Part shown: one piece after another, positions 34,101 to 37,100 of the stretch
Numbering within the stretch: the stretch's first letter is position 1
Layout: each line of letters opens with the position of its first letter
Origin: a virus
Taxonomy: Duplodnaviria > Heunggongvirae > Uroviricota > Caudoviricetes
Reading direction: 5' to 3' (one strand)
Virus record (IMG/VR): IMGVR_UViG_2802429234_000005
Coordinates: 1-52,974 of that record
DNA: 52,974 bases
Made by a program: the position numbers

Positions 34101-37100
34101 TGAGGAAGATGTGGGGCTGAAAATTCGCTACATCGCTATTCAGATTCTTACTGCTATTGATATTGCTGCTCCGGTTGATACCGGGCGTTTCAGAAATAAC
34201 AACATGGTGTCGTTGCAGCATCCCGATTTTGGTACATCTGATAACGTGGATCCGAACGGTACGATTGCGGTTCAGCGTGGGATCGGGGTTATTTCGAAAG
34301 CTGCAAATTACGGAATTATTTATATCCAGAATAACCTTCCTTATGCAGAGGCTCTTGAAAACGGTCATTCACAACAAGCGCCAACTGGCGTGTATGCCAA
34401 CGCTTTTAATGGTGTTTTACAGGCTTACAAATGACGTTTACTGAAATCAGAAATACGGTCATTTCCAGAATGACGGCACAGATGGTTATTGATGGAAAAG
34501 ACGTATTGTATCCGAACGGGCCAACGTTCGATCCTTCCGGTAAGTTAATCTGGGCGCGGTTAAGTAATATTCCCGGGCAGGCTGGAGTTAATGAAATTGG
34601 CGCGGGGCCGGTTGTTTATCGCACGGGGATAATCATTATTCAGTTATTTGTCCCCGCAGGTTCTGGTTCAAAACTCATTACTGAGACAGCCGATAAATTG
34701 CGGGAACTGTTTGAGTTTCAGGATGACGACCGTCTCAGTTACCAGGCTGTTTCCTCAATAACCGTTGGCGAAAAGAATGGCTGGTTCCAGCTTAATCTTC
34801 AAATTCCATATCGCGCGCTCTAGCGCAATTAATGACATAGGAGGCTCCTGTGAGTTCAGGTGCAAAGGTTATCTCGGCATTTATCCGGGAGACAGTTGCA
34901 GGCACCACACCAGCAAGTGGTGACTGGAGTTTATTAAAACGCACAAGCTGGGGAGTAAAACCCACCCAGAATAAAGGCGAAAATAATGAGATTGGTGGCT
35001 CCCGGATGGCTCAGGGAGCGACGCCTGGCACTGTGGATGTTGGCGGTGATGTTGGTACCAAATTTCGCTGGGGTCAACATGATGATTTTCTTGCATCCTG
35101 TTTCGGCGCGGAATGGTCAGGTGATTCTCTGACAATGGGGAATGAGCGAATAACATTTTCTCTGGCGACCTATGCGTCCGATGTCGGAATTGCCTCTGTT
35201 GTCAGAGGAGCGCAGGTTGGCTCATGGAAAATGCAGATCCCTAACGACGGCGATATTACGGCGACCGTAACCTTTGCCGGGCTGGACTGGGAATCAAAGG
35301 CCGATGATACGAATTTTATCAAAGGCGAACCTGTGGATAGTGCAGGAAAGCTACGTTATTCGTTTAAGGAGGTTTCAGCAGTAAGCCTGAATGGTGTTGC
35401 CGGAGGTAACGGTTTTTGTATCGACAGTTTTGATATTCAGTTCGATAACAAACTCCAGACACAGCGTTGTATCGGGACTGGCTCGCCTTATGCAGGAGCA
35501 AATATTCCGACTACTTTTACACCGTCCGGTACGGTGACGCTTTCATGGTCTAAAGCCGCGTGGGAAATCTGGAGTAAAACACTGACTGGAGAAACAGTTC
35601 CGTTCAGCTTCACACTTTCGAATGGAGAGGGGACATACACTTTCAGTTTCCCGAAGGTTCAGGTGTCAGGTGAATGGCCCGATGGGGGTAATACCGACAT
35701 TATCCAGGTTCAATTGAGCATTACCGCAGCAGATGAAGCACCTACGATAACCAGAAAAAAAGCCTCCCCGGCTGCCGTGATCGCAAAAGCCAGTGCTGAG
35801 GCGATTAGTTGATTTTCCGTTATTCCCCCTGTGGTACTGCACTACAGGGGGCGCATTGAATGAGGTTATGGATGTTTATTCTTAATCAGAAAATTATCAT
35901 CGGTGGTGAACGCTGGTTTACCCCAATGAAGGACTTAAAACCTGTAGACGGGTTAAAACTGTTGGTGGCAAGCAGCGATAACGATCAGTATCGCTCCCGT
36001 AATGCATTAATCCGTCGCCACATTGAGAAAATGGATGCCAGTTTGCACGTCGGAACGAAGGAGTTTGATATTGCCAAGGTTTCCGAGGTGGATTCTGTTG
36101 ATGATTTACTCATTGATAATGCTGCTCGTTATCTGCTGAAAGACTGGAAAGGGGTTGGTGAACTGGTTGATGGTGTTGAGGTTGCACTGGAATATACGCC
36201 AGAACGAGGGATCGCGCTGCTTAAGCAGAATCCGGAGTTGTACTGGCAGATCCTTGCAGAAGCAGCCAGCATCGCCCAGGGTAAAGAGCAGCAGAAGCAG
36301 GATACGATAAAAAAGCCATAGCCGCCCAGCGGTGGTTATCGGAGTTCGGGGGAGAAAAGGGTGAAAAGGCAAGATGGAAGCGAGAAAAACTCAGGTTGCC
36401 GCTGCTCCCGGAGCCAGAAATAGACCCCGTTGTCCGTGAGTTATTGTATGCGTATTCAGTAATGTCTCGTTCCAGGCGTTATGCAGGCATGTCCGGGGTT
36501 CCGCTACCTTTGTCAATATCTGACATACACGACTATTTAAAAGCACACCCGATATTAATAGAAGGTGATGAATTCGAAGCCGTGATTTTCGCACTCGATG
36601 ACAATTATTTTTCGCGAACTGACGATTTTGATGAACAAAATATTTAGCAAATGTCGACTTTATTATATTATTGCGTATATTTTAATACGCATATATGATT
36701 TAGTGCGAAATTGATAGTTGACTTTCAAATATGCATGGTATTTTAATGTGTGCCGCACAGCTTAAATTTTGCTGTCGTAACAATGTTTTTATAAAAAAGG
36801 TAATTTTATGAAGAAAGCAGTGTTGGCTACCATTATAGTTTCAACTTTGTTTGCAACTGGCATTGCAAACGCTGAATTACTGCAGAGTACTATTTCTGCT
36901 GGTTATGCTCGTAGCCATGCAAAAGTTGATAATGCCAGCGAGGATCTGAACGGTTTTAATATTAAATACCGTTATGAACTGAATAACGACTGGGGTATGG
37001 TTGGTTCTTTTGTGCACACCAATTACAACAAAGATGCTTATGGCTATGTTCCTGATCTTCAAGGAAAACCACAATACACCAAATTAGCATCTGGAGATCT

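What the first reader, a model, noticed from the sequence alone, without database searches (positions are those of the whole stretch)
36300..36647. Programmed -1 frameshift site (A_AAA_AAG) producing a G/GT-type tail chaperone fusion
The chaperone ORF ends 2 codons after the slippery heptamer AAAAAAG (36309..36315); the -1 frame is open from that point to 36647, giving an ~110-aa extension. This is the conserved tail-assembly chaperone recoding arrangement upstream of tape measure genes.
Basis: partly seen in the sequence, partly recalled or inferred. Interest (0 to 1): 0.4.

Follow-up and report, generated by a model that had tools for sequence, protein, structure and literature searches.

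The report
Tail chaperone -1 frameshift site
This is an ordinary but real, and so far unannotated, example of the well-known ribosomal -1 frameshift that lets a phage make a short and a long form of its tail-assembly chaperone, here in a Rac-type prophage of E. coli.

Summary
A_AAA_AAG lies at 36309-36315, in phase with a 149-aa ORF (35872-36321) that ends one sense codon later. The -1 frame is open from 36315 to the stop at 36645-36647, which adds 110 aa. The ORF lies after the tail tube gene and before the tape measure gene of a Rac-type prophage integrated at ttcA.

The single-sequence pattern is not rare by itself. The comparative evidence is what makes the case. In about 95 related loci, down to 32% protein identity, a shift-prone motif sits at the homologous codon. 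It is AAAAAAG or GGGAAAG in most, with weaker variants in Pectobacterium, Erwinia and Pseudomonas phages. The 0-frame stop moves between 1, 7, 25 and 35 codons downstream, yet the -1 peptide stays conserved.

The first 27 or more -1 codons have no start codon but evolve like coding sequence (substitutions 20/21/47 by codon position). The fused 258-aa protein matches PHROG 313 "tail assembly chaperone" end to end.

It has no sequence similarity to lambda G/T, no conserved stimulatory RNA structure, and an Ail/Lom moron sits between T and the tape measure gene. None of the deposited records I examined annotates the slippage.

Verdict: a new member of a known kind, of low interest.

The parts
34850..35812 (+). 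Tail tube (major tail) protein gene, the upstream neighbour that defines the context
   Evidence: PF18906 Phage_tube_2 E 3e-31 and phrog_290 E 7e-112. The homologue in NZ_CP145663 is annotated 'phage tail tube protein'.
35872..36321 (+). G-like tail assembly chaperone ORF (149 aa, 0 frame, stop TAG 36319-36321). An in-frame ATG at 35860 is probably not the start.
   Evidence: phrog_313 'Tail assembly chaperone' E 5e-47. More than 140 homologues of 143-166 aa all start at the equivalent of 35872 and end ...T[IV]KKP. GAGG at 35862-35865 lies 6 nt before the ATG.
36309..36315 (+). Slippery heptamer A_AAA_AAG, in phase with the G ORF and followed by CC
   Evidence: The homologous position carries AAAAAAG or GGGAAAG, with rarer variants GGGGAAG, GGAAAAG and CGCAAAG+TAA, in all relatives examined.
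36315..36647 (+). T-like -1 frame extension (110 codons plus stop TAG 36645-36647). It can be reached only by the frameshift.
   Evidence: phrog_1189 E 4e-31. Sub-threshold PF23812 Phage_TAC_18 hits. The peptide is conserved across genera. There is no ATG/GTG/TTG in the first 27 codons, and substitutions there are biased to the third codon position (20/21/47).
35872..36647 (+). Span encoding the predicted GT fusion protein (148 aa from the 0 frame plus 110 aa from the -1 frame, 258 aa in total; G36315 is read twice)
   Evidence: The fused sequence matches phrog_313 in a single stretch, residues 5-250 on profile positions 20-247 of 258, E 2.5e-51.
36316..36342 (+). Local hairpin that starts directly after the heptamer (0-nt spacer). 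It is lineage-specific and its role is uncertain.
   Evidence: -14.2 kcal/mol, z -3.6. It is present in the close E. coli/Shigella relative L003 but not in the Citrobacter, Klebsiella, Raoultella, Serratia or Scandinavium relatives. The alignment fold gave only 4 pairs and no covariation.
36808..37365 (+). Ail/Lom family outer-membrane protein gene (a moron) inserted between T and the tape measure gene. Context only, not part of the recoding device.
   Evidence: PF06316 E 5e-32 and phrog_108 E 3e-47. The cassette at about 36612-37403 is absent from relatives L003, L017 and K-12. Promoter-like sites lie at 36644-36681 and a terminator-like hairpin at 37389-37411.
37435..40668 (+). Tail length tape measure protein gene (1077 aa), the presumed client of the chaperone
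   Evidence: PF06791 E 5e-82, PF09718 E 2e-26 and phrog_24.

Best explanation
This is a programmed -1 ribosomal frameshift in the tail assembly chaperone gene of a Rac-type lambdoid prophage.

Most ribosomes translate the 149-aa G-like protein (35872-36321) and stop at TAG 36319. A small fraction slip back one base. This happens when the P and A sites hold AAA and AAG of A_AAA_AAG (36309-36315). Both tRNA-Lys re-pair with AAA AAA, and translation continues from GCC (36315) in the -1 frame for 110 more codons. The product is a 258-aa GT-like fusion.

By analogy with lambda gpG/gpGT, the shared G part would coat the tape measure protein (37435-40668). The T part would recruit the tube protein (34850-35812), with the G:GT ratio fixed by the slip frequency.

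Shown here: the sequence anatomy, the conservation of the slip site and of the -1 peptide, the absence of a start codon, and coding-type evolution of the -1 stretch.

Inferred: that slippage occurs, how efficient it is (probably well under about 5%, since no conserved stimulator was found), and the roles of the two proteins.
For: 1. Anatomy: the phase, the stop and the 110-codon -1 ORF are as described.

2. Context: tube gene, then G/T, then tape measure gene, followed by M, L, K, I and J-like ORFs.

3. Family: G matches phrog_313 TAC at E 5e-47. The fused GT matches it across the junction, positions 20-247 of 258, at E 2.5e-51.

4. Comparative data: in 14 genome loci, 80 viral contigs and 4 further phage loci (30 phage records matched by tblastn), a shift-prone motif sits at the homologous codon.
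- AAAAAAG in E. coli, Shigella, Citrobacter, Klebsiella, Siccibacter and Scandinavium.
- GGGAAAG in Raoultella, Serratia and Pantoea. This changes the amino acid from K to G but keeps the site slippery.
- The 0-frame stop lies 1, 7, 25 or 35 codons downstream, while the -1 ORF of 100-119 aa stays conserved.

5. No independent start: in 12 relatives the -1 frame has no ATG/GTG/TTG for at least 27 codons after the junction. That stretch still encodes a conserved peptide (A[IL]EAQKWLSEFGGExGEKAKW+REKL), with minimum substitutions of 20/21/47 at codon positions 1/2/3.

6. Database footprint: T is almost absent from a 5.8-billion-protein database (13 truncated hits), against more than 140 hits for the GT query that are almost all G-only proteins. 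This is expected if gene callers cannot find a start for T.

7. Measured slipperiness: A_AAA_AAG and G_GGA_AAG are equally and highly shift-prone in E. coli. Reported values are 0.29% and 0.28% without a stimulator, 4.3% and 3.8% with the IS911 stimulator, and 39% and 43% with the IS3 stimulator (Sharma et al. 2014, PMC4066793 supplement). [quoted passage not shown] 2016, PMC5009743). The window has AAAAAAG-CC.

8. Precedent: the same heptamer is an accepted frameshift site in an unrelated E. coli prophage tail chaperone, ECs1801.
Against: - There is no experimental or proteomic evidence for the fusion in this family.
- No conserved downstream stimulatory structure was found. The local hairpin has a 0-nt spacer and is restricted to one lineage. 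No Rfam family matched.
- There is no sequence similarity to lambda G/T, and the structure model was too poor (pLDDT 44) to test the fold.
- A few relatives have imperfect motifs: GGGGAAG in Pectobacterium, GGAAAAG in Pseudomonas phages, and CGCAAAG followed by TAA in an Erwinia phage. There the slip would rest on a single A_AAG tRNA-Lys shift.
- The single-sequence pattern is not statistically unusual on its own.
Confidence: 0.9

Rival explanations
1. T is a separate gene translated from its own internal start (TTG 36396, ATG 36462 or ATG 36489). The heptamer is incidental.
For: Gene callers sometimes call such fragments: 61-86-aa 'hypothetical proteins' appear in phage and E. coli records. 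The Met at codon +58 is conserved.
Against: The 27-58 codons upstream of any start codon are conserved as protein, with third-position-biased substitutions. The candidate start positions are not conserved apart from the internal Met of the YAGM motif. No Shine-Dalgarno sequence precedes them. The fused protein matches one PHROG profile across the junction. The slip motif is maintained through a K-to-G amino acid change.
Confidence: 0.03
2. The frame change is made at the RNA level. RNA polymerase stutters on the A6 run and inserts an extra A, so a subset of mRNAs encode GT directly.
For: The site contains a homopolymer run of six A. Transcriptional slippage is a known alternative route to the same kind of product (Atkins et al. 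2016).
Against: From my own knowledge, six A is shorter than the runs of about 8-9 or more that give appreciable slippage by E. coli RNA polymerase. Relatives carry GGGAAAG, GGAAAAG or CGCAAAG at the same place, with only 3-4 A. These fit tRNA re-pairing but not polymerase stuttering.
Confidence: 0.04
3. This is a decaying prophage gene. An ancestral single GT ORF was broken by an indel, or by a sequencing error in the A run, and nothing is recoded.
For: PGAP labels the homologue in NZ_CP145663 as an incomplete pseudogene. K-12 ydaY is a truncated remnant. A few database proteins (P0001, P0002) are continuous G-T fusions.
Against: The split architecture is the rule across about 95 loci in more than 10 genera, with different 0-frame stops and a maintained slip motif. 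P0001 and P0002 switch frame at other positions and look like secondary deletions or assembly errors. The surrounding tail module in the window consists of intact ORFs.
Confidence: 0.02

Closest known systems
Phage lambda gpG / gpGT (G_GGA_AAG -1 frameshift; Levin, Hendrix & Casjens 1993; Xu, Hendrix & Duda 2004, 2013, 2014, as summarised in PMC5009743)
   Same: - Two overlapping ORFs sit between the major tail gene and the tape measure gene.
- An in-phase heptamer lies a few codons before the G stop.
- The -1 ORF has no start of its own, and the extension is of similar size (110 aa here, 144 aa in lambda).
- Some members of this family even use lambda's own heptamer, GGGAAAG.
   Different: - No detectable sequence similarity (BLASTP E 17; no lambda-type Pfam hit).
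- The heptamer here is A_AAA_AAG.
- The stop follows after 1 sense codon, against 5 in lambda.
- An Ail/Lom gene with promoter-like and terminator-like sites separates T from the tape measure gene, whereas lambda T overlaps H directly.
ECs1801/ECs1802 tail assembly chaperone of E. coli O157:H7 Sakai prophage Sp9 (cluster A_AAA_AAG_25, marked 'true' in Sharma et al. 2014, PMC4066793)
   Same: It has the same heptamer A_AAA_AAG at the end of a prophage tail chaperone ORF in E. coli, in the same tube-G-T-tape measure context.
   Different: It is an unrelated protein family (no BLASTP alignment at E <= 100). It is 124 aa against 149 aa. Its stop codon follows the heptamer directly (AAAAAAG TAG).
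E. coli dnaX gamma/tau frameshift cassette (A_AAA_AAG with upstream SD-like element and downstream stem-loop)
   Same: It uses the same slippery heptamer and the same tRNA-Lys mechanism (PMC5009743).
   Different: - dnaX frameshifting is very efficient and gives a shorter product. Here the product is longer.
- No conserved stem-loop lies at a 5-8-nt spacing.
- An AGGA lies 6 nt upstream (36299-36302), but it cannot be told apart from the conserved Q-E/D codons.
E. coli K-12 Rac prophage gene ydaY (b1366)
   Same: It is the same gene family at about 90% DNA identity. The same AAAAAAG heptamer and an intact 104-codon -1 ORF are present in K-12.
   Different: K-12 ydaY lacks its 5' end because of the Rac internal deletion. 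Its T ORF is unannotated, and the downstream tape measure gene is a fragment (ynaA). The window carries the complete gene in an apparently complete tail module.

Membership tests
G/GT-type tail assembly chaperone recoding arrangement (Xu, Hendrix & Duda 2004 class) | The gene pair lies between the major tail (tube) gene and the tape measure gene | tested here: met
   Tube gene 34850-35812 (PF18906), G 35872-36321, T up to 36647, tape measure gene 37435-40668 (PF06791, PF09718). An Ail/Lom gene (36808-37365) is interposed.
G/GT-type tail assembly chaperone recoding arrangement (Xu, Hendrix & Duda 2004 class) | [quoted passage not shown] | tested here: met
   A_AAA_AAG at 36309-36315, one sense codon before the stop.
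G/GT-type tail assembly chaperone recoding arrangement (Xu, Hendrix & Duda 2004 class) | The downstream ORF is in the -1 frame, overlaps the end of the upstream ORF and lacks its own initiation site | tested here: met
   The -1 frame opens 10 codons before the junction. The first possible start is TTG at codon +27, and none of 12 relatives has a start before +27.
G/GT-type tail assembly chaperone recoding arrangement (Xu, Hendrix & Duda 2004 class) | The arrangement (slip site plus -1 ORF) is conserved in diverged relatives | tested here: met
   About 95 loci down to 32% protein identity. The heptamer is exchanged between AAAAAAG and GGGAAAG, and the position of the 0-frame stop varies.
G/GT-type tail assembly chaperone recoding arrangement (Xu, Hendrix & Duda 2004 class) | Both products are made at a fixed low GT:G ratio, are required for tail assembly and are absent from virions | not testable with these tools
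   This needs proteomics, reporter assays and genetics.
Lambda gpG / gpT protein families (sequence homology) | Significant sequence similarity to lambda G and T | tested here: not met
   BLASTP of the window GT against lambda GT gave a best E of 17. Pfam gave no hit for G, and T gave only a sub-threshold hit to a different TAC family.
PHROG 313 'Tail assembly chaperone' | HMM match over the family profile | tested here: met
   G alone: E 5e-47 on profile positions 13-149 of 258. Fused GT: E 2.5e-51 on positions 20-247 of 258, in one stretch.
Pfam PF23812 Phage_TAC_18 | Score above the gathering threshold (27 bits) | tested here: inconclusive
   The window T domain scores 19.1 bits (E 0.0014). 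Seven of 8 diverse T domains give 13.7-20.7 bits over nearly the whole profile. The hits are consistent but all lie below the cut-off.
Tail assembly chaperone fold (solved TAC structures) | Structural similarity of the G domain to solved TACs | tested here: inconclusive
   The AlphaFold2 model of GT had mean pLDDT 44 and pTM 0.26, so no fold search was run. A profile search of PDB sequences found nothing (best E 0.16, unrelated protein).
dnaX-type stimulated frameshift cassette | A conserved 3' stem-loop about 5-8 nt after the heptamer and a 5' SD-like element | tested here: not met
   The hairpin at 36316-36342 has a 0-nt spacer and occurs only in the E. coli/Shigella lineage. The alignment fold gave 4 pairs and no covariation. 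The AGGA 6 nt upstream is confounded with conserved codons. No Rfam hit.

The most novel reading that the evidence does not exclude
The E. coli/Shigella branch of this family may have acquired its own stimulator. The candidate is the stable 11-bp hairpin that begins directly after the heptamer and encloses the G stop codon (36316-36342, -14.2 kcal/mol). It might act together with the AGGA 6 nt upstream. If so, this lineage would set a different G:GT ratio from its Citrobacter and Klebsiella relatives, which lack the hairpin. The family, with naturally exchanged heptamers (AAAAAAG, GGGAAAG, GGAAAAG, A_AAG plus stop) at one homologous codon, would then be a natural series for studying how chaperone stoichiometry is tuned.
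Probability: 0.12. Interest if true: 0.35.

Novelty: new member of a known kind. Interest (0 to 1): 0.2.

Why it matters
The main value is for annotation. In this widespread enterobacterial prophage family, which includes the remnant gene ydaY of the E. coli K-12 Rac prophage, the G ORF is labelled 'hypothetical', 'YdaY' or even 'pseudogene'. The T part is missing or is called as a truncated fragment. None of the phage or RefSeq records I examined marks the ribosomal slippage.

Recognising the site gives the correct 258-aa GT product and a function for ydaY-type genes. The family also offers a clean natural example of selection acting on slipperiness rather than on the encoded amino acid: AAAAAAG and GGGAAAG are exchanged at one codon position.

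It does not change what is known about the mechanism.

Tried and rejected
- **Rfam scan** of 36100-36800 at a permissive E-value found only chance-level hits and no frameshift element.
- **Downstream structure.** Folding 36316-36420 gave z -0.43. The short hairpin at 36316-36342 is significant locally (z -3.6) but is not conserved and has no covariation. I rejected it as a family-wide stimulator.
- **NCBIfam** gave no hit for GT. Pfam gave no hit for G in the local copy. The database lists PF27119 for G homologues, but that model is not in the local library.
- **Structure.** The AlphaFold2 model of the fusion, built from a 40-sequence alignment, reached only pLDDT 44. Fold searches were therefore not run, because they would be meaningless.
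- **PDB profile sequence search** found nothing.
- **Lambda GT comparison** by BLASTP showed no similarity. ECs1801 showed none either.
- **Literature.** No paper in the held library links ydaY or Rac with a tail chaperone frameshift. Gurvich et al. 2003 could not be retrieved. The E. coli-wide heptamer screen of Sharma et al. 2014 lists a different tail chaperone cluster (ECs1801); a search of its two supplementary files held as text found no mention of ydaY.
- **Continuous G-T proteins** P0001 and P0002 were considered as evidence for an ancestral unsplit gene. I rejected this because they change frame at other positions and come from single contigs.
- **Single-sequence statistics** (heptamer count, length of the open -1 frame) are not significant by themselves.
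Full report
**1. Observation**

- Bases 36309-36315 are AAAAAAG.
- The upstream ORF reads ...ACG ATA AAA AAG CCA TAG, so the heptamer is phased A_AAA_AAG.
- One sense codon follows, and then the stop TAG at 36319-36321.
- Entering the -1 frame at G36315 gives AIAAQRWLSEFGGEKGEK...DDFDEQNI. That is 110 codons up to TAG at 36645-36647.
- The -1 frame opens only 10 codons before the junction.

The conserved start of the upstream ORF is ATG 35872. It is preceded by GAGG with a 6-nt spacer, and all homologues begin there. This gives G = 149 aa and a predicted fusion of 148 + 110 = 258 aa.

**2. Is the pattern more than chance?**

Not from this sequence alone.
- AAAAAAG occurs 20 times in the window, against 18.6 expected.
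- Of 80 mechanical ORFs of at least 100 aa, 13 have an in-phase X_XXY_YYZ in their last 30 codons.
- 21% of them have a -1 frame open for at least 100 codons beyond their end.

The case therefore rests on context and on comparison with relatives.

**3. Context**

The window is a Rac-type prophage integrated next to ttcA. Its first 8 kb carry intR, recT and recE and are 98.7% identical to E. coli chromosomes.

The ORF pair sits in a lambda-like tail module:
- tail tube protein at 34850-35812 (PF18906);
- the G/T pair;
- an Ail/Lom outer-membrane protein gene at 36808-37365;
- the tape measure gene at 37435-40668 (PF06791, PF09718, PF24622);
- an M-like minor tail gene (PF05939), followed by L, K, I and J-like ORFs.

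G matches PHROG 313 'Tail assembly chaperone' (E 5e-47), but only on profile positions 13-149 of 258. The -1 extension matches phrog_1189 (E 4e-31). The conceptually fused protein matches phrog_313 in one continuous stretch, positions 20-247 of 258, at E 2.5e-51. So the profile of this chaperone family runs across the junction.

**4. Comparative evidence**

A database search with GT returned more than 140 proteins, almost all G-only (143-166 aa). Nearly all end ...T[IV]KKP.

I fetched DNA for 14 genome loci and 80 viral contigs. I also fetched four further phage loci (one each from Klebsiella and Erwinia, two from Pseudomonas) from the 30 phage records matched by tblastn.

At the codon homologous to 36309-36315, every locus carries a shift-prone motif:

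| Motif | Hosts or phages |
|---|---|
| AAAAAAG | E. coli, Shigella, E. ruysiae, Citrobacter, Klebsiella, Siccibacter, Scandinavium |
| GGGAAAG (lambda's own heptamer) | Raoultella, Serratia, Pantoea |
| GGGGAAG | Pectobacterium (one locus) |
| GGAAAAG | Pseudomonas syringae phages (32% identity) |
| CGCAAAG followed by TAA | Erwinia phage Gungnir39 |

Three features point to selection on the recoding arrangement.
- The AAAAAAG-to-GGGAAAG exchange changes the encoded residue (K to G) but keeps the site slippery.
- The 0-frame stop lies 1, 7, 25 or 35 codons after the motif in different lineages.
- The -1 ORF of 100-119 aa is nevertheless kept and is conserved as protein. The exceptions are a few loci with truncated -1 ORFs (39-61 aa).

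In 12 diverged relatives the -1 frame has no ATG, GTG or TTG for at least 27 codons after the junction. That stretch still encodes a conserved peptide, and its minimum substitution counts are 20/21/47 at codon positions 1/2/3. This matches the 19/14/49 seen in the last 27 codons of G. The stretch is therefore translated in the -1 frame, and a frame change is the only way to reach it.

Consistent with this, a search with T alone found only 13 proteins among 5.8 billion, all truncated calls from internal starts.

**5. Mechanism**

From the literature:
- E. coli has a single tRNA-Lys (mnm5s2U34) that pairs better with AAA than with AAG.
- A_AAA_AAG is among the most shift-prone heptamers and is the dnaX site.
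[quoted passage not shown] 2016, PMC5009743). The window has AAAAAAG-CC.

Measured -1 efficiencies in E. coli are nearly identical for the two heptamers that alternate in this family (Sharma et al. 2014, PMC4066793 supplement):

| Heptamer | No stimulator | IS911 stimulator | IS3 stimulator |
|---|---|---|---|
| AAAAAAG | 0.29% | 4.3% | 39% |
| GGGAAAG | 0.28% | 3.8% | 43% |

I found no conserved stimulator.
- The region downstream of the heptamer folds no better than shuffled sequence.
- A local 11-bp hairpin (36316-36342, -14.2 kcal/mol, z -3.6) begins with no spacer after the heptamer. It occurs only in the E. coli/Shigella lineage.
- An AGGA 6 nt upstream (36299-36302) recurs in many relatives, but it coincides with conserved Q-E/D codons.
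- Rfam gave nothing.

I therefore infer a low-efficiency shift, from a few tenths of a percent to a few percent. That is the regime of lambda, where gpG:gpGT is about 30:1.

The division of labour is inferred by analogy with lambda and was not tested. In that model G binds the tape measure protein and T recruits the tube protein.

**6. Rival explanations**

- Independent initiation of T conflicts with the conserved, start-less 27-58 codons.
- Transcriptional slippage is unlikely for an A6 run. It is incompatible with the GGGAAAG, GGAAAAG and CGCAAAG variants.
- A broken pseudogene or a sequencing error is excluded by the conservation of the split arrangement across more than 10 genera. The rare continuous proteins P0001 and P0002 change frame elsewhere. 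P0001 looks like a 35-nt deletion between the two copies of GCAGAAGCAG at 36256-36265 and 36291-36300. This is my inference from the protein alignment and the window sequence.

**7. Comparison with known systems**

In how it works, this is the conserved tail-chaperone frameshift first shown for lambda G/GT and generalised by Xu, Hendrix and Duda (2004).

In membership, it is not a detectable homologue of lambda G/T (BLASTP E 17). It is also unrelated to ECs1801, the other E. coli prophage chaperone known to use A_AAA_AAG (no alignment).

It belongs to PHROG 313. The T domains of the window and of 7 of 8 relatives tested give consistent but sub-threshold hits to Pfam PF23812 Phage_TAC_18.

The fold could not be tested. 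The AlphaFold2 model had pLDDT 44, and the PDB sequence search was empty.

**8. Novelty and verdict**

The phenomenon is textbook. What is new is modest.
- In this family, the phage and RefSeq records I examined give no slippage annotation.
- G is called 'hypothetical', 'YdaY' or a pseudogene 'missing C-terminus'.
- T is absent or truncated.
- The held literature does not mention the site.

My corrections concern the start codon, the interposed lom gene, the lack of homology to lambda and the absence of a conserved stimulator. This is a new member of a known kind, with interest about 0.2.

Noticed in passing
window 36612-37403 (lom ORF 36808-37365; promoter-like sites 36644-36681; terminator-like hairpin 37389-37411): An Ail/Lom-family outer-membrane protein gene sits as a moron between the T ORF and the tape measure gene. 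It has an AT-rich upstream region and a strong terminator-like hairpin just before the tape measure start. The cassette is absent from most relatives, including K-12 Rac. Its left junction lies inside the last ~12 codons of T, so the window's T has a different C-terminal tail (DDNYFSRTDDFDEQNI against DDQYFQEQCV). Klebsiella and Pseudomonas relatives carry other small ORFs at the same spot, so the T-to-tape-measure junction looks like an insertion hot spot.
   Followed up: partly
L102 (E. coli K-12 MG1655 NC_000913.3 1425621-1426290; locus 622-1290): K-12 Rac gene ydaY (b1366, 'putative uncharacterized protein') is the 5'-truncated G chaperone gene. It keeps the AAAAAAG heptamer, and an intact 104-codon -1 T ORF lies unannotated between ydaY and ynaA, the tape measure fragment.
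   Followed up: partly
L002 (NZ_CP145663.1) locus 4264-4620: PGAP annotates the G homologue as a pseudogene ('incomplete; partial in the middle of a contig; missing C-terminus'). This is probably an annotation artefact of the unrecognised frameshift.
   Followed up: no
window 35755-35761 (inside the tube gene 34850-35812, 17 codons before its stop): An in-phase run of seven A (A_AAA_AAA) would give a 12-codon -1 extension. The close relative L003 has nine A at the same place. The run is absent from the Citrobacter, Klebsiella, Serratia and other relatives checked, so it is probably incidental. It is nonetheless a potential ribosomal or transcriptional slippage site.
   Followed up: partly
L008, L049, L061, L069, L085, L087 (10 codons upstream of the main heptamer; not present in the window, which has GGT AAA at 36279-36284): Some relatives carry a second in-phase heptamer, G_GGA_AAA, ten codons upstream of A_AAA_AAG. 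The -1 frame is already open there, so it is a possible minor second shift site that would give a 121-124-aa extension.
   Followed up: no
window 36256-36265 and 36291-36300: GCAGAAGCAG occurs as a 10-bp direct repeat 35 nt apart near the end of G. Database protein P0001 (E. coli, 240 aa) reads as if the interval had been deleted, which would hard-wire G to the T frame. This is inferred from the protein alignment only.
   Followed up: no
window 1-8000: The window starts in ttcA and runs into intR, recT and recE. The whole window is therefore a full-length Rac-family prophage at the classical Rac attachment site, with a P22-type coat gene and a lambda-type tail module according to the annotation of relatives.
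   Followed up: partly
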